Shown in pieces: positions 39,859 through 45,292 of a stretch of DNA of 64,000 bases; within the stretch, counting starts at the first letter, position 1, and each line of letters begins with the position of its first letter. The notes beneath the pieces were generated by a model. That model ran no database searches, was not told where the DNA came from, and saw only the letters and a list, made by a program, of their open reading frames with translations. Made by a program: the position numbers and the translations under genes. Where the stretch lies: NCBI GenBank assembly GCA_965216315.1, contig CBDCFN010000016.1, positions 2,240,001 through 2,304,000 of the forward strand. Reading direction: 5' to 3'. This stretch comes from a bacterium (GTDB lineage: Bacteria; UBA10199; 2-02-FULL-50-16; JAJFLM01).

Positions 39859-39919
39859 TTATCGAAAGAATAAAGGAAATGTTGTATACAGCGGAAAATA
39901 TCTGTTGACTCAAGTCAAC
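39859..39919 (-). promoter_or_regulatory. Promoter CAAC-N15-TCGATAA (39859-39884) with GTTGAC-TCAA-GTCAAC (39904-39919) 19 bp upstream
   Basis: Perfect palindrome at the conserved spacing. Confidence 0.75.
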
Positions 39920-39929
39920 AGCTGCGCCT

Positions 39930-40779: not shown

Positions 40780-41628
40780 TTACGCTCTTTCATGTTTTGT
40801 CACCGGCAGCATCTGGATACTGAGCAAGACAACATCATCTGGATTGTCATCGTCAGCAACCAACTGGAGGATTTCGCGTCGAAACTCCTGAATGCGTTTT
40901 TTGATCTGCGGGACTCTTTCTTTAATAATTCCTAAAGTCAGAGCACTGACATCCCGTTCTTTTTGTTCCACCTCGGGAAGCTGCCCTTTTAATAAATCAA
41001 ACAAACTCTGGTGATAATTTAAAAGCACGAGGGAATCGGCTTCGGCACCGCTCGTTACAAGCGGTGTCGCCTGTTTCCACTTATTGGTCACCGCATCACG
41101 CTCAATAAAATGAAGTCGCGCCAACAATTCGACGGACTTTTTTACTTGCGCGGGAGACACTTCCGGCTGCAATCTTTTAGCCAACCACTCGATTGAACCG
41201 TCAAAATCCTTAGAAATGATCAACTCGCGCACAACCGGATGATACCAGGTTGAAAAATACTCGTAACGATCCTGCGCAAGTGGCTCTAACTGACTGTAGC
41301 GTTGAGAACGAATCAACTTCTTATAGTAAGCGTTTTTTTCCGCGTGCGTTTTCGCCTGATTAAAGAAGACGAGATTACGAAAGTGCTCGCGCTCCGGACG
41401 CTCCAGTTTGATTCCTTTAATGAATTTCTTGAGGCTTTCCTCAGTCAGGTTACGTTCGCCATCCATGACGAGTTTAAAAATATTGGAGGATTTAAAGCCG
41501 GCTTGCCGGGAAAAGACCCGATATGAAAACCCGTACCGCTCTTTGGCCGATTCATACCAATCGCGCAAGAAGGCCCGGTAATCCATATAATCGAATACTG
41601 AGACGTTATTGTTGCCGTTGTTACCCAT
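40780..41628 (-). CDS. TIGR02147/DUF4423-family HTH protein, copy 2
   Basis: Same motif set as copy 1 (DYR.FL.DWY, FSYR.FS..AG, WYHPVVREL, RDVSALTLGI). Confidence 0.9.
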   Translation of the reverse strand: MGNNGNNNVSVFDYMDYRAFLRDWYESAKERYGFSYRVFSRQAGFKSSNIFKLVMDGERNLTEESLKKFIKGIKLERPEREHFRNLVFFNQAKTHAEKNAYYKKLIRSQRYSQLEPLAQDRYEYFSTWYHPVVRELIISKDFDGSIEWLAKRLQPEVSPAQVKKSVELLARLHFIERDAVTNKWKQATPLVTSGAEADSLVLLNYHQSLFDLLKGQLPEVEQKERDVSALTLGIIKERVPQIKKRIQEFRREILQLVADDDNPDDVVLLSIQMLPVTKHERA

Positions 41629-41676
41629 GTCACTTACCTATACGCTATTATACCCTGTATACTGCCTGTTCTCTAG

Positions 41677-41703
41677 TTATCGTTCAGCGTCCGGCTTGAG
41701 TTG
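41677..41703 (-). promoter_or_regulatory. Promoter CAAC-N16-ACGATAA for TIGR02147 copy 2
   Basis: Motif match; no phased palindrome seen. Confidence 0.65.
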
Positions 41704-41826
41704 CCTCATTTTGACGAAATTTATCAATTTTTTGTATGCAGCAATCCCTATCTAACTATCTGTTATTATTAATTTTTTAATTTCTATCTTATTTATGCCC
41801 TTTTTTTTGAGTCAACAGGCCCCCCT

Positions 41827-41888
41827 GTTGACCCAGGTCAACAGATAATCCTGACGAAACGCAACGAAGACTCGAACGAATCCGATAA
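41827..41888 (+). promoter_or_regulatory. GTTGAC-CCAG-GTCAAC (41827-41842) 19 bp upstream of promoter CAAC-N16-CCGATAA (41862-41888)
   Basis: Perfect palindrome; extra GTCAAC half-site at 41811. Confidence 0.75.
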
Positions 41889-41931
41889 GTCTCAACGAAA
41901 CGAACCGCAATTTCTGAGCATGGAGGCAACA

Positions 41932-42522
41932 ATGGGTGAACCAAGCACACTTCTTAATATCTATAATAGCACCAAAGACTATATTTGGAACTTAGCCGCT
42001 GCGCAGCCCGTGGAAACGGATAGCGATGTCGCTTCCGGCGCTGATGACACGGCGCAAACTCATGCGAATACGGATTTACTAGACAAGACCGTCACCCCCT
42101 GCAAAAAGGCAACTCCTTCGGTCGTTCGCCTTCATCAAGCCCCGATGCGCCCCGGCCAGCGGGACGATGGGGATACCGAATTCACCAATTTCATGAAACG
42201 ACCCGGTTTCGGGCACGACGAACGCGTCGTCAGAGAGCTTGGTTATGCGTTTGACAAGTCGAAACTACCGGACACGATTACAGTCCGCATGCAAATATCG
42301 TCCAATGGAAGTATTGCGGTCGCCGAACTCCCGGAAGACTACAAACCACCGAAGGGCATTTCACGGGAGGAAATGAACCACATCATTCATCGAGCGCTCG
42401 TGCCTTTTAGCGTGCCTAGCTATGCAGTGCCGGAAGCATCGCGAACGAATCCATGCGCGTGGATCACGCACACCATATCGCTGAATCCGACACCGGATCC
42501 GGCATCAGTACCTAACAGTTAA
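41932..42522 (+). CDS. Hypothetical protein without signal peptide
   Basis: GGAGG before ATG 41932; bracketed by promoter and terminator. Confidence 0.7.
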   Translation: MGEPSTLLNIYNSTKDYIWNLAAAQPVETDSDVASGADDTAQTHANTDLLDKTVTPCKKATPSVVRLHQAPMRPGQRDDGDTEFTNFMKRPGFGHDERVVRELGYAFDKSKLPDTITVRMQISSNGSIAVAELPEDYKPPKGISREEMNHIIHRALVPFSVPSYAVPEASRTNPCAWITHTISLNPTPDPASVPNS

Positions 42523-42528
42523 AAACAG

Positions 42529-42597
42529 CTTACACATACGCACCCATGACACTCCGAAAAAGGTCATCCTCTTCACCCCTTGAGGATGGCTTTTTTT
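42529..42597 (+). terminator. 3' UTR 27-nt motif (copy 1) plus intrinsic terminator
   Basis: CTTACACATACGCACCCATGACACTCC then AAAAAGGTCATCCTC...GAGGATGGCTTTTTTT. Confidence 0.8.
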
Positions 42598-42608
42598 CGT
42601 TCACTCGT

Positions 42609-42670
42609 GTTGACTGACGTTAACAGATAAACTTTTTGCAACGCAACAGTGTGTCGGTAGGTACCGATAA
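42609..42670 (+). promoter_or_regulatory. GTTGAC-TGAC-GTTAAC (42609-42624) 19 bp upstream of promoter CAAC-N16-CCGATAA (42644-42670)
   Basis: Motif pair with conserved spacing. Confidence 0.75.
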
Positions 42671-42676
42671 CTAATA

Positions 42677-42758
42677 TACAACAAGTTATTCAACTTACAC
42701 ATACGCACCCATGACACTCCAAAAAGGTCATCCCTCTCCCCGGGGGGATGACCTTTTT
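42677..42758 (+). ncRNA. Candidate ~80-nt sRNA (motif copy 2 plus terminator); 5' end estimated
   Basis: Own promoter, no complete ORF, 27-nt motif at 42694-42720, terminator AAAAAGGTCATCCC...GGGATGACCTTTTT. Confidence 0.65.
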
Positions 42759-42770
42759 ACTTTTAAAGGT

Positions 42771-42841
42771 GTTAACTTACGTCAACAGATAAAGCCTTCG
42801 TTAACGAATATTAAACAACATCGTTTGCGAATAACCGATAA
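42771..42841 (+). promoter_or_regulatory. GTTAAC-TTAC-GTCAAC (42771-42786) 29 bp upstream of promoter CAAC-N15-CCGATAA (42816-42841)
   Basis: Motif pair. Confidence 0.7.
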
Positions 42842-42890
42842 TACTACAGGTAGGCTAACTGATAACTCGTTTCAGAAAGGTTGGGATAAC

Positions 42891-43238
42891 ATGTCGTATC
42901 AAATTCATACCGTCCGTCCGGGAGACACGTTGGCAAGCATTGCGCGGCACTACGGCGTCACCATGCAGCAACTCCGGAAGCTGAATGTTCATCTCACGCA
43001 ATCGAGTGGCTCGATTCCTCGTACGAGTGCAGGAAGTAAGATTTACGTCGGTGACGAAGTCCGTATTAAAGAGCTCCTTGAGTGCGGCCGCAACGTCGGG
43101 CCTTTTCAGTTGGGTTGTCGTTATGCGTCGAGTGACACATTAAAACTGGAGTTTGGTATCAAGGGCGACGTAAGCACACAACCCCTTAATTCCTCAATCA
43201 TGGTTGGCGCCAGAATCACTTTTTCCGGGGGCAACTAA
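42891..43238 (+). CDS. Small LysM-domain protein, no signal peptide
   Basis: HTVRPGDTLASIARHYGVT...L..LN...IYVGD; GAAAGG Shine-Dalgarno-like sequence upstream. Confidence 0.85.
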   Translation: MSYQIHTVRPGDTLASIARHYGVTMQQLRKLNVHLTQSSGSIPRTSAGSKIYVGDEVRIKELLECGRNVGPFQLGCRYASSDTLKLEFGIKGDVSTQPLNSSIMVGARITFSGGN

Positions 43239-43247
43239 ATAGCTGAA

Positions 43248-44435
43248 CTAGGGTTGCGCCGTAAACGAAGTCGTTGCGGCCTTGGTCTTACCGCCCGTCC
43301 CGCAGTCGATTTCATCGACCTTGACCTCGTATTCGGTCCCGGCGGCAAAGGGGTCAACGCCGTGCTCGCACGCGATCTCATCCGCCCCCAGCTGATGGTT
43401 GGTGCAATCGACGTCGATCGCGAGTCCTTTGGGCTGAATAATCAGCGCGCTGGGAAAATCGATCAGGCCAAGATGATATTTGCAGCCCAAGCGAACAATC
43501 ACCTGTTCCGAGAGGCCTACGCCCGTCTGACCGTTGAAGGGATAAATTCTCAAGACCGGAACCATCCCCCCCAAATCTTCCTCACGACAAGGTGAGCCGG
43601 GATCATTGTCATCGATAAAACCATTGAGGTCACAATCCCGCTCCATTTGATCAAGTACGCCGTCGTTATCATCGTCCGTGTCGATCGCATCCGAGTCCCC
43701 ATCCTCGTCGCGGTCCGTATAGATCTCCGGATTGTGTTCCGGAATCGCGTCAAGACCCTCGATCTGCACCCGACCTAAGTCAACGGGTTTCTCGGCCGGG
43801 AGCCCGACGTAAAACTCATTTTGGCGGATAAAGGCGCGCTGCTTACTGAGATGTTCCATCTTCACGACCAGGCGCGCGACGAGGTCACCGGTCTTTTTTC
43901 GGAACTCCAGCATATAAGCGCGCTTGGTCGGCACAGCGAGCTTAAAAGAGCAATCCGATTCAATTCTCGTAGTGAGCTCTTGTCGTGCAGAGTTGATCGC
44001 GGTCACGGTCGCGGCCGGACAGACCTTGACTACCGCAATTTTAGTCGCCTGCTCGGCCCATTCCGTCCGGATGTTTACCAGACTCATCTGCATGAGCGGC
44101 CTGATATCCTTATACGGCAATTCGCGCACCGGGCTCTCGATCAGCTGCCGTTCCTCTTCCACGGGCTGCAGCTGACCGATGATCAGGCGTAGCGGAGCCG
44201 GATCCTGATCGTAAGGTGTTCCCGGCCGTGGCCCTGGTCCCGGATCAGTCGGCGTCGCTTCCGGATTCCCGAAATCCGTTCCCCCGAACTCTGGGTTCCC
44301 GAAATCCGTTCCGCTGATCGTTTGCTCGGTATCGACAATGTCCGGTGGTGCGGTATCCGCTCCCTGCGGCTGGACGCACGCGGCAATAAAAAAGACGAGC
44401 GCAATAGTACTGAGCAACCGGCTCCAGCAGGTCAT
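43248..44435 (-). CDS. Lipoprotein of the GNP-motif family (2 copies) with DxDxDG repeats and Ig-like C-terminus
   Basis: IAAC lipobox, SGTDFGNPEFGGTDFGNP, DCSF.L.VP...Y; ATGA overlap with TIGR02147 copy 3. Confidence 0.82.
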   Translation of the reverse strand: MTCWSRLLSTIALVFFIAACVQPQGADTAPPDIVDTEQTISGTDFGNPEFGGTDFGNPEATPTDPGPGPRPGTPYDQDPAPLRLIIGQLQPVEEERQLIESPVRELPYKDIRPLMQMSLVNIRTEWAEQATKIAVVKVCPAATVTAINSARQELTTRIESDCSFKLAVPTKRAYMLEFRKKTGDLVARLVVKMEHLSKQRAFIRQNEFYVGLPAEKPVDLGRVQIEGLDAIPEHNPEIYTDRDEDGDSDAIDTDDDNDGVLDQMERDCDLNGFIDDNDPGSPCREEDLGGMVPVLRIYPFNGQTGVGLSEQVIVRLGCKYHLGLIDFPSALIIQPKGLAIDVDCTNHQLGADEIACEHGVDPFAAGTEYEVKVDEIDCGTGGKTKAATTSFTAQP

Positions 44436-45292
44436 GATCCACCTGCCTCGTCCGTCGGCTCTTCGACCATCGGGAATAAATAGATATTCAACTGCAAGAC
44501 CTCCTCCGTCTCCGTATCATCGGCGACCAGCTTGAGGATGTCCTGTCGAAATTTTTCGATTTTCTTCTTTATCTGGTGCAGGCGGGGCTTGGTTACTCCC
44601 AAGGTCAACGCCCCCATATAGCGCCTCGGTGCCGGAACGGCCCCAAGCAGGTGGGGGAGAAGCTTCATCATAGTCTTATGATAATTGAAAAGCTCAACGG
44701 ATTCAATAGCGGTCCCGGGGGCGAGCACGGAAGAGCTCTGTTCCCAGCGTCCTGACGGGCTGCGATGGATCAATTCGAGCTTTTCCAAGAGCTCGAGCGA
44801 GGCTTCGACCTGCTCCAATTTGATCCGTTTTCCGAGCCGCGTCATCAACCATTCCGGGGTTCCATCATAGTCCTTGGCCGTGATGAGCTCGCGAATGACC
44901 GCATGGTACCAAGCCGAACAATATTCATGCTGATGGGCTCTAATCGGTTGTCTTTGTTGGTATTTTTTCGAACGCAGCAACAAGTTGTAGTAACGATCCT
45001 CTTCTTCATGGGTCTTGGCCTGGTTATACGCGACCAGATTGCTAAAAAAATCGGCGTCCTGGGCCGCCAGCTTCAAGGCCTTAACCGTCTTCGGCAAGGT
45101 ATCCGCAGTTAAGTTCCGTTTTCCCTGAATGACCAACATGATGTAGTTGGAGGACTTGAACCCGGCGCGTTCCGCAAATCTTCGATAGGACATGGAGGCC
45201 CGGGTCTTTTTCTTCGCCTCAAACCAGTCGCGCAAATAGGTACGATAATCGTTGTAATCGTAGAGATTTATGTCCTCTGCCGGCTCCGACAC
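44432..45292 (-). CDS. TIGR02147/DUF4423-family HTH protein, copy 3
   Basis: DYR.YL.DW, SYRRFAERAG.KS, G.RNL, WYHAVIREL, LTLGV, I.KFR.DIL. Confidence 0.9.
   Translation of the reverse strand: MSEPAEDINLYDYNDYRTYLRDWFEAKKKTRASMSYRRFAERAGFKSSNYIMLVIQGKRNLTADTLPKTVKALKLAAQDADFFSNLVAYNQAKTHEEEDRYYNLLLRSKKYQQRQPIRAHQHEYCSAWYHAVIRELITAKDYDGTPEWLMTRLGKRIKLEQVEASLELLEKLELIHRSPSGRWEQSSSVLAPGTAIESVELFNYHKTMMKLLPHLLGAVPAPRRYMGALTLGVTKPRLHQIKKKIEKFRQDILKLVADDTETEEVLQLNIYLFPMVEEPTDEAGGS

What the first reader, a model, noticed from the sequence alone, without database searches (positions are those of the whole stretch)
42529..42758. Duplicated 27-nt motif plus terminator: a stand-alone sRNA and a 3'-UTR sibling
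Seen: CTTACACATACGCACCCATGACACTCC is identical at 42529-42555 (3' UTR of 41932-42522) and 42694-42720. Each copy is followed by a related terminator with differing loops and stem changes that keep pairing. Copy 2 has its own operator and promoter, and only ~80 nt before termination. A perfectly kept, unstructured, C-rich stretch before a terminator is typical of a base-pairing seed.
Basis: partly seen in the sequence, partly recalled or inferred. Interest (0 to 1): 0.8.

Follow-up and report, generated by a model that had tools for sequence, protein, structure and literature searches.

The report
Candidate twin small RNAs, one promoter-driven
Two identical 27-base unpaired stretches, each in front of a transcription terminator, look like a pair of sister regulatory RNAs, one riding on the tail of a gene and one with its own promoter, an ordinary kind of bacterial regulator that is new in sequence and not yet shown to be expressed.

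Summary
The 27-mer lies at 42529-42555 and 42694-42720 (none of 100 shuffles gave a match). These are its only copies in the genome. Each copy is predicted unpaired and is followed by a strong terminator.

Identity is uneven between the two units: 42 of 44 positions over the motif plus the 5' stem arm, 75% from the 3' stem arm through the operator, and close to random in the promoter spacers. This is not a neutral recent duplication.

Copy 2 lies about 24 nt behind a promoter of a class I could support statistically, rCAAC-N15-17-CCGATA with 89 sites and a sharp spacing peak. An upstream palindrome is found at 7 loci under the strict pattern.

Best reading (about 0.55): sister base-pairing sRNAs, an 82-84 nt primary transcript and a 3'-UTR copy, most simply made by a tandem duplication that put a copy of the LysM gene's promoter in front of a second 3'-UTR module.

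The motif is complementary to start regions of mRNAs with the same promoter class (none of 405 shuffles equal it). One match is a perfect 16-mer over a lipoprotein start codon.

Open: no RNA data exist, no homologue was found elsewhere, and no Hfq or ProQ gene was found. It would be a new member of a known kind.

The parts
41808..41848 (+). Operator 1: three half-sites (GTCAACAG / CTGTTGAC / GTCAACAG) followed by ATAA, upstream of promoter P1
   Evidence: (I13, D2)
41861..41888 (+). Promoter P1, GCAAC-N16-CCGATAA, drives the 200-aa orphan gene
   Evidence: A roughly 85%-identical relative in run X6 keeps 41806-41892 with 3 differences in 87 nt.
41932..42522 (+). Orphan protein gene (197 aa from ATG 41932 behind GGAGG, or 200 aa from 41920); no Pfam family
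   Evidence: One weak homologue in 1 of 92 other genomes of the class (G074, E 4.7e-7).
42529..42555 (+). Motif copy 1 (putative seed) in the 3' UTR
   Evidence: predicted unpaired
42557..42598 (+). Terminator 1: 15-bp stem including two G.U pairs, 10-nt loop, T-run
   Evidence: (I9)
42608..42630 (+). Operator 2, TGTTGAC-N4-GTTAACAGATAA
   Evidence: (D2)
42643..42670 (+). Promoter P2, GCAAC-N16-CCGATAA, for the stand-alone copy
   Evidence: It is the only one of 89 promoters of the class with a strong terminator (-23.1) within 100 nt. The one ORF listed behind it starts inside the motif and runs through the terminator.
42677..42760 (+). Predicted stand-alone sRNA (about 82-84 nt): 17-nt leader, 27-nt motif, terminator. 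Both ends are inferred.
42694..42720 (+). Motif copy 2 (putative seed)
42721..42758 (+). Terminator 2: perfect 14-bp arms (17 bp in the minimum-energy fold)
   Evidence: (I6)
42770..42792 (+). Operator 3, TGTTAAC-N4-GTCAACAGATAA
   Evidence: (D2)
42815..42841 (+). Promoter P3, ACAAC-N15-CCGATAA, for the LysM gene
42891..43238 (+). LysM-domain protein gene (115 aa)
   Evidence: PF01476, E 1e-12

Best explanation
The locus encodes two sister trans-acting, base-pairing small RNAs that share one 27-nt single-stranded seed. Copy 1 is the 3' UTR of the orphan gene 41932-42522. It would act as part of that mRNA or after cleavage near 42523-42529. Copy 2 is a primary transcript of about 82-84 nt (about 42677-42760) from its own promoter P2.

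P2 is an alternative-sigma promoter (GCAAC-N16-CCGATAA). A palindromic site sits about 60 nt upstream of the inferred start, so the palindrome is more likely an activator site than a repressor operator.

The simplest origin is a tandem duplication of a 165-nt unit (3'-UTR motif, terminator, operator, promoter of the LysM gene). That would place a promoter copy in front of the second motif and turn a 3'-UTR element into an independent sRNA gene.

The seed would pair with translation-start regions of mRNAs made from the same promoter class and block their ribosome binding: an incoherent feed-forward loop. The best candidates are a lipoprotein mRNA at G000:C16:1825995-1826010 and a 561-aa orphan at C16:2163400.

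Shown: the sequence anatomy, the promoter class, the uneven conservation and the complementarity statistics. Inferred: transcription, the RNA ends, processing, pairing in vivo and its effect.
For: 1. Identity is confined to the functional parts.
- 42 of 44 positions are identical over the motif plus the 5' stem arm.
- 75% are identical over the 59 nt from the 3' stem arm through the operator (D1).
- Little beyond the -35 and -10 boxes matches in the promoter part.
- At 75% background identity, 42 or more of 44 has a probability of about 4e-4 (my binomial estimate).

2. The motif is predicted unpaired in both contexts and both terminators are strong. The two wobble changes keep pairing only in + strand RNA.

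3. P2 belongs to a real promoter class.
- rCAAC-Nx-CCGATA counts are 53, 18 and 18 at x = 15, 16 and 17.
- They are 1 at x = 14, 12 at x = 12-13 together and 11 at x = 18-19 together; the backwards control gives 10.
- Most of the 89 sites lie shortly upstream of ORFs.
- The strict operator-plus-ATAA pattern occurs at 7 loci in the genome, 3 of them here.

4. Targets.
- In the 150 nt behind the 86 other promoters of the class, 7 regions pair at -25 kcal/mol or better. None of 405 shuffles gave as many or reached the sum of the top five.
- The longest perfect complement in the genome is 16 nt. Only 26 of 2000 shuffles reach 16. It covers the start codon of a lipoprotein mRNA, starting 9 nt behind a CCGATAA box.
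- Among 7105 candidate start regions the best hit is -36.5, the next -28.9, and none of 21 shuffles reach -36.5.
- Cofolding the 84-nt RNA gives net -28.8 and -27.3 kcal/mol for these two, against -8.4 and -5.2 for the two neighbouring genes.

5. An RNase E/G gene is present, so 3'-UTR processing is possible.
Against: - There is no expression evidence. No RNA run is listed, and the contigs laid cannot show transcripts.
- There is no comparative evidence. The motif is absent from all 92 other genomes of the class at up to 3 mismatches and from the metagenome collection (no hit; 3 hits, all unrelated contexts). 'Conservation' therefore rests on two paralogous copies in one genome, and short-tract gene conversion could produce the same pattern.
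- Genome-wide, the best duplex energy is not exceptional: 2 of 22 shuffles do better than -36.5.
- The target enrichment leans on a 42-kb island of partly paralogous genes, which are not independent. Outside the island it is marginal: 10 of 405 shuffles reach the top-five sum and 16 of 405 the best hit. The island test was defined after seeing the hits.
- No Hfq or ProQ gene was found in a genome that is 98.3% complete.
- The start site and the activity of P2 are inferred from a motif.
Confidence: 0.55

Rival explanations
1. The 44-nt block plus hairpin is a cis-acting 3'-end module. It would set termination efficiency or transcript stability, or be bound by a protein. It was copied together with the operator-promoter unit and has no trans targets.
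For: The conserved block runs straight into the terminator stem. No chaperone gene (Hfq, ProQ) was found. The target statistics are partly carried by paralogues.
Against: Only 2 terminators in the genome carry the motif, so it is not a general terminator feature. In copy 2 there is nothing to stabilise apart from the short transcript itself. The 16-nt perfect complement at a start codon (26 of 2000 shuffles) and the regulon-wide excess (0 of 405 shuffles) would go unexplained.
Confidence: 0.15
2. An evolutionary relic: an old tandem duplication whose central 44 nt were recently made alike by short-tract gene conversion. Copy 2 may or may not be transcribed, and it has no function.
For: The only 'conservation' is between two adjacent paralogous copies in one genome. 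No homologue exists elsewhere. Adjacent repeats are prone to conversion.
Against: The identical tract is bounded by diverged sequence on both sides, which leaves little homology to start conversion. The downstream stem changes are all pairing-preserving and the operator and promoter boxes are kept, so the unit is under selection. The complementarity statistics argue for a function.
Confidence: 0.15
3. Copy 2 is a leader or attenuator of the LysM gene. P2 transcripts end at terminator 2 unless a signal allows read-through, which would give the LysM gene a second, conditional promoter.
For: P2, terminator 2, P3 and the LysM gene are collinear on the + strand.
Against: The fold shows no alternative anti-terminator pairing: the motif stays unpaired and the terminator is -27.4 kcal/mol. 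P3 already serves the LysM gene. The same motif and hairpin follow a coding gene in copy 1, where a leader role makes no sense. Rfam finds no riboswitch or leader above its threshold (best score 21.1 against a cut-off of 55).
Confidence: 0.08
4. The repeat is a DNA-level protein-binding site or encodes a small peptide.
For: An ATG lies inside the motif (42546 and 42711). On the - strand the motif reads GGAG, 4 nt, then ATG and a 5-codon frame (read).
Against: The + strand frames diverge after the 1-nt indel and have no ribosome-binding site. The copy 2 frame runs through the terminator. The - strand mini-frame lies downstream of a hairpin and no promoter of the class points that way. The G.U changes fit RNA on the + strand only. 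The motif is not palindromic and is unlike the operator.
Confidence: 0.03

Closest known systems
CcsR1-4 ('cuckoo') sRNAs of Rhodobacter sphaeroides
   Same: Homologous sRNAs repeated in tandem behind a small protein gene, made from an alternative-sigma (RpoHI/HII) promoter, released from the 3' UTR by RNase E, and carrying a C-rich anti-Shine-Dalgarno sequence (PMC8034643, passages seen).
   Different: In CcsR the anti-SD motif CCUCCUCCC sits in hairpin loops; here the motif is a linear unpaired 27-mer. The upstream gene here has no DUF1127 or any other Pfam family. The second copy here has its own promoter instead of being co-transcribed. There is no sequence similarity (Rfam).
3'-UTR-derived sRNAs of enterobacteria and Vibrio (for example SdhX, NarS, OppZ, MicX/MalH)
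   Same: The seed lies just upstream of the mRNA's own Rho-independent terminator. 3' UTRs are described as a playground for sRNA evolution, and MicX and MalH show the same locus with or without its own promoter in different species (review PMC9438474, passages seen).
   Different: Those sRNAs depend on Hfq or ProQ, and no such gene was found here. Here the processed-type copy and the promoter-driven copy coexist side by side in one genome. The words 'sibling' and 'duplication' do not occur in that review, which is no proof of novelty.
FliA (sigma-28)-type attack-phase promoters and AP sRNAs of Bdellovibrio bacteriovorus
   Same: The -10 box CCGATA and the spacing of about 16 nt match the consensus TTAAG-N16-CCGATA, found in 92 of 140 attack-phase promoters. 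That promoter class drives many non-flagellar surface and unknown proteins and some lineage-specific sRNAs (PMC3627812, passages seen).
   Different: The -35 box here is rCAAC, not TTAAG: TTAAG-N15-17-CCGATA occurs only 6 times in this genome. The best FliA/WhiG-family sigma scores 133.5 bits, below the curated 189.6. The taxon of this genome was not established.
Tandem sibling sRNAs in general (OmrA/OmrB, PrrF1/PrrF2, Qrr1-4; recalled, no paper read here)
   Same: Adjacent paralogous sRNA genes with an identical seed and diverged remainder. As I recall, the Qrr genes also combine an alternative-sigma promoter with an upstream activator site.
   Different: In those pairs both members are stand-alone genes. 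Here one member is embedded in an mRNA 3' UTR. This comparison rests on memory only.

Membership tests
Trans-acting base-pairing sRNA (stand-alone gene) | Own promoter | tested here: met
   GCAAC-N16-CCGATAA at 42643-42670 fits a promoter class with a sharp spacing peak and has an upstream palindrome. This is in silico only; no TSS data.
Trans-acting base-pairing sRNA (stand-alone gene) | Rho-independent terminator closing a short non-coding transcript | tested here: met
   Hairpin 42721-42758, -27.4 kcal/mol for the 86-nt RNA. No conserved ORF.
Trans-acting base-pairing sRNA (stand-alone gene) | Conserved single-stranded seed | tested here: inconclusive
   Unpaired in both folds and 27 of 27 identical between the two copies. 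However, no orthologue exists to show conservation across species.
Trans-acting base-pairing sRNA (stand-alone gene) | Complementary mRNA targets | tested here: inconclusive
   Excess over shuffles in same-class 5' regions (0 of 405). A 16-nt perfect match at a start codon (26 of 2000). Genome-wide energy is not exceptional (2 of 22), and paralogues inflate the excess.
Trans-acting base-pairing sRNA (stand-alone gene) | Detected as a short RNA | not testable with these tools
   No RNA holder listed; only contigs could be laid.
Hfq- or ProQ-dependent sRNA | Chaperone gene present in the genome | tested here: not met
   No match to PF17209 or PF04352 in a 98.3%-complete genome, with controls positive.
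3'-UTR-derived sRNA | Seed between the stop codon and the mRNA's own terminator | tested here: met
   The motif starts 6 nt after the TAA at 42520-42522 and ends 1 nt before the hairpin.
3'-UTR-derived sRNA | Processing enzyme and a processed 5' end | tested here: inconclusive
   RNase E/G gene present (361.8 bits). The cleavage itself is not testable.
Any Rfam family | Score at or above the family's gathering threshold | tested here: not met
   6 matches at E up to 10 in 41500-43300, all far below threshold (best 21.1 against 55).
Sigma-28 (FliA) promoter | -10 box CCGATA with a spacer of about 16 nt | tested here: met
   consensus taken from PMC3627812.
Sigma-28 (FliA) promoter | -35 box TTAAG as in Bdellovibrio, and a FliA orthologue | tested here: not met
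   The -35 box is rCAAC. TTAAG-N15-17-CCGATA occurs 6 times. The best FliA_WhiG hit is 133.5 bits, below 189.6.
CcsR / cuckoo RNA | CCUCCUCCC in hairpin loops and an adjacent DUF1127 gene | tested here: not met
   The motif is absent from the sequence. The upstream protein has no Pfam family.

The most novel reading that the evidence does not exclude
A stand-alone sRNA gene was born from an mRNA 3' UTR by a single 165-nt tandem duplication that captured the next gene's activator site and alternative-sigma promoter. The two sisters act without Hfq or ProQ, through an unusually long 27-nt seed, as feed-forward repressors of a lineage-specific regulon of orphan secreted and lipoproteins driven by the same sigma factor.
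Probability: 0.3. Interest if true: 0.6.

Novelty: new member of a known kind. Interest (0 to 1): 0.4.

Why it matters
If the RNAs are made, this is a compact natural example of how an independent sRNA gene can arise from a 3' UTR: one duplication borrows a neighbour's promoter. It would also give a first handle on post-transcriptional control in a little-studied lineage that appears to lack Hfq and ProQ. That lineage runs a large regulon of orphan proteins from a CCGATA-type promoter with an unusual -35 box. The predicted targets and the exact seed make the hypothesis directly testable. In kind, though, it is an ordinary sRNA architecture.

Tried and rejected
- RNA evidence: no RNA holder is listed among the 13 runs returned. 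The four runs laid are contigs only and say nothing on expression.
- Homologues: 40 relatives by DNA search gave only chance-level matches. A recurring hit to 42625-42644, checked in the one locus I looked at (L005), lay inside a coding region that I read as Mfd-like, so I took these hits as unrelated.
- Motif in the class: the 27-mer with up to 3 mismatches is in none of the 92 other genomes.
- Metagenome scans: the 3' 20-mer gave no hit. The central 21-mer gave 3 hits. Two lie in what reads as coding sequence of unrelated contigs (I did not translate them) and one in a CA-repeat contig. None has a terminator, so I take them as chance.
- More siblings in the genome: the next best same-sense match has 7 mismatches and no terminator. 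Other blastn-short hits are terminator arms.
- Covariance model: not built. MAFFT misplaced the 1-nt indel, so the two stems fell out of register, and a two-sequence profile would add little to the mismatch search.
- Self-regulation: pairing with the host gene's own start region (-16.7), the LysM gene (-9.5) and the two DUF4423 neighbours (-17.8, -11.3) is unremarkable. The 12-nt near-match at the start of the DUF4423 gene (D5) therefore counts as chance.
- Small ORFs on either strand: rejected (see rivals).
- Synteny through the DUF4423 neighbour: one relative at 55% identity, in a different context, with no motif.
- Candidate target proteins: no Pfam family for the 3 tested.
- Run X5: the 30 loose letters ahead of its contig are not in this genome at up to 5 substitutions. 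The contig stays unexplained.

Full report
**Observation**

The 27-mer CTTACACATACGCACCCATGACACTCC occurs at 42529-42555 and 42694-42720 on the + strand. With up to 3 mismatches these are the only matches in the window, and none of 100 shuffles gave a match. They are also the only copies in the whole 2.96-Mb assembly on either strand. The next best same-sense match has 7 mismatches and no terminator.

Copy 1 begins 6 nt after the stop codon of the ORF 41920/41932-42522. The near-identical block is 44 nt, not 27: 42526-42569 against 42691-42733, with one substitution and one 1-nt indel. It includes the 5' arm of each terminator stem.

**Structure**

Folded alone, the 3' UTR (42523-42600) and the putative short transcript (42675-42760) both leave the motif unpaired. 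Both form one strong terminal hairpin, at -21.3 and -27.4 kcal/mol.

The loops differ (TTCACCCCTT against TCTCCCCGGG). In the stems, two positions differ on one side and become G.U wobbles in copy 1, and one position differs on both sides (U-A against C-G). All of these changes keep pairing. The wobbles would be C.A mismatches in an RNA from the other strand, so the selected hairpin is on the + strand (my reading).

**Not a neutral duplication**

The two copies lie 165 nt apart, and identity falls in steps:
- 42 of 44 positions over the motif plus the 5' arm.
- 75% over the next 59 nt, from the 3' arm through the operator, in one register (D1).
- In the promoter part, little beyond the -35 and -10 boxes matches. 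The distance from operator to -35 differs by 9-11 nt, and the spacers look unrelated.

Taking 75% as a generous neutral level, 42 or more matches in 44 has a probability of about 4e-4 (my estimate). Short-tract gene conversion between the neighbouring copies remains possible.

**Promoter and operator**

Three units lie in a row on the + strand:
- Operator 41808-41848 and promoter 41861-41888, ahead of the orphan gene.
- Operator 42608-42630 and promoter 42643-42670, ahead of motif copy 2.
- Operator 42770-42792 and promoter 42815-42841, ahead of the LysM gene at 42891-43238.

The promoter form rCAAC-Nx-CCGATA is a real class in this genome. Counts are 53, 18 and 18 for x = 15, 16 and 17. They are 1 for x = 14, 12 for x = 12-13 together and 11 for x = 18-19 together. 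The pattern read backwards gives 10.

Most of the 89 sites lie a few tens of bases upstream of ORFs. These are mostly orphan or lipoprotein-like proteins, plus one ORF whose N-terminus looks like flagellin (my reading).

The -10 box and spacing equal the FliA-type consensus TTAAG-N16-CCGATA, reported for 92 of 140 attack-phase promoters of Bdellovibrio bacteriovorus (PMC3627812, passages seen). The -35 box is different. The best FliA/WhiG-family sigma here scores 133.5 bits, below the curated 189.6. I therefore call it 'sigma-28-like' only. I did not establish the taxon.

The strict palindrome TGTTrAC-N4-7-GTyAACAGATAA occurs at 7 loci (8 matches, one site read on both strands), 3 of them here. 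Looser versions of the pattern add a few more. Its centre lies about 60 nt upstream of the inferred start, a typical activator position (inference).

Of the 89 promoters, P2 is the only one followed within 100 nt by a strong terminator (-23.1). The only ORF listed behind it starts inside the motif, runs through the terminator and is not shared with copy 1.

**Origin**

The two units abut, at roughly 42508-42672 and 42673-42840. The leader of copy 2 also shows weak residual likeness to the last codons of the orphan gene (my reading).

The simplest history is one tandem duplication of the unit [3'-UTR motif, terminator, operator, LysM promoter]. That would put a promoter in front of a second copy of the 3'-UTR module. 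This is inference; the reverse order of events cannot be excluded.

**Targets**

Scanned over the whole genome, the best non-self duplex (-36.5 kcal/mol) is not exceptional: 2 of 22 shuffled motifs do better.

Restricted to 7105 candidate start regions (a Shine-Dalgarno-like word, a start codon and 80 or more open codons), the top hit is -36.5 at G000:C16:2163400 on the - strand. This is a 561-aa orphan behind a CCGATAA box. The next hit is -28.9, and none of 21 shuffles reach -36.5; their best is -35.7.

An a-priori set gives the clearest result. I took the 150 nt behind the 86 other promoters of the same class.
- 7 regions pair at -25 or better. None of 405 shuffles gave as many or reached the sum of the five best.
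- Leaving out the 13 promoters of one 42-kb island, the result is marginal: 10 of 405 shuffles reach the sum and 16 of 405 the best hit.

The island (C16:2,160-2,202 kb) holds 5 of the 20 best start regions, and none of 600 shuffles match its top-five sum. I delimited it after seeing the hits, and several of its genes are paralogues, so these figures overstate the case.

The longest perfect complement anywhere in the genome is 16 nt, at C16:1825995-1826010. Only 26 of 2000 shuffles reach 16. It covers the start codon of a lipoprotein-like ORF and begins 9 nt behind a CCGATAA box, so that mRNA would be nearly leaderless.

Cofolding the 84-nt RNA with these two 5' regions gives a net -28.8 and -27.3 kcal/mol. 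The two neighbouring genes give -8.4 and -5.2. The 3' half of the motif (CCCATGACACTCC) is the complement of a ribosome-binding site plus ATG plus GG, and the 5' half pairs with the lipoprotein start. Different targets using different parts could explain why all 27 nt are kept. None of the three target proteins tested has a Pfam family.

**Cofactors**

No Hfq and no ProQ gene was found in a genome rated 98.3% complete, with positive controls. An RNase E/G gene is present. If the RNAs work, they do so without the classical enterobacterial chaperones. A long C-rich seed would suit that (established pattern, recalled, not tested here).

**Comparative and read evidence**

Rfam gives nothing near threshold. 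The motif is in none of the 92 other genomes of the class. The orphan gene has one weak homologue (G074, 27% identity, E 4.7e-7), which also carries ACAAC-N16-TCGATAA but no motif. Metagenome scans gave no hit for the 3' 20-mer and 3 chance hits for the central 21-mer.

Contigs of two samples from one study (X1, X4) contain both copies without any difference. That supports the assembly, but it is not independent evidence.

A run of another organism label (X6) has contigs about 85% identical that keep 41806-41892 (operator 1 and P1) with 3 differences in 87 nt, while the 120 nt before it are diverged. This fits selection on the control region; X6 does not cover the motif.

Run X5 holds a 221-nt contig at depth 82 that equals 42460-42622, preceded by 58 unlike letters that are not in this genome. 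I cannot explain it.

**Comparison with known systems**

The architecture is that of a classical base-pairing sRNA and of a 3'-UTR-derived sRNA (review PMC9438474, passages seen).

The closest described arrangement I could document is CcsR1-4 of Rhodobacter sphaeroides: homologous sRNAs in tandem in the 3' UTR of a small gene, made from an alternative-sigma promoter and carrying C-rich anti-Shine-Dalgarno motifs (PMC8034643, passages seen). It differs in motif, structure and upstream gene, and its copies lack their own promoters.

I confirmed the module and its class, but I did not test the regulator link.

**Verdict**

The sRNA reading is the best explanation (about 0.55), but expression is unproven. 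It would be a new member of a known kind, with a neat possible origin story. Interest is moderate.

Noticed in passing
G000 genome-wide; in the window 41861-41888, 42643-42670, 42815-42841: There is a promoter class rCAAC-N15-17-CCGATA with 89 sites and a sharp peak at spacer 15 (53 sites). It shares the -10 box of Bdellovibrio FliA-type promoters but has a different -35 box. It mostly drives orphan, lipoprotein-like and MG-starting proteins.
   Followed up: partly
window 41808-41848, 42608-42630, 42770-42792, 39898-39920 (- strand); also G000:C15:50958, C16:104931-104958, C16:1131507, C16:1803934: The palindrome TGTTrAC-N4-GTyAACAG(ATAA) recurs upstream of such promoters. Site 1 has three half-sites. 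One site (C16:104931-104958) is read in both directions, and on one side a promoter of the class follows ahead of a DUF4423 gene. The regulator is unknown.
   Followed up: partly
G000:C16:2,164,000-2,202,000 (outside the window): An island holds 13 promoters of the class on the - strand, several with near-identical spacers (GCAACTTTCGCAA...). It contains paralogous orphan proteins starting MGCDLYGASNLEG..., none with a Pfam family among those tested.
   Followed up: partly
G000:C16:1825995-1826048 (- strand): A lipoprotein-like ORF (signal peptide ending LWGC) has its ATG only about 16 nt behind a CCGATAA box, so its mRNA would be nearly leaderless. The start is perfectly complementary to 16 nt of the motif.
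   Followed up: partly
window 42460-42622, run X5: A 221-nt contig at depth about 82, in a run labelled as another organism, equals this stretch exactly (end of the orphan ORF, motif, terminator, start of operator 2). It is preceded by 58 letters not found in this genome, and nothing else of the 1.8 kb is covered.
   Followed up: partly
G000:C16:2034457 and 2035748 (outside the window): Two promoters with an identical 28-nt sequence are followed by similar weak hairpins at +59 and about +97-99, ahead of different ORFs.
   Followed up: no
window 40780-41628 (-) and 44432-45292 (-): Two DUF4423 (TIGR02147-type) genes flank the locus. Three more DUF4423-like N-termini (my reading) follow promoters of the class elsewhere: C16:105034, 284268 and 98731.
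   Followed up: no
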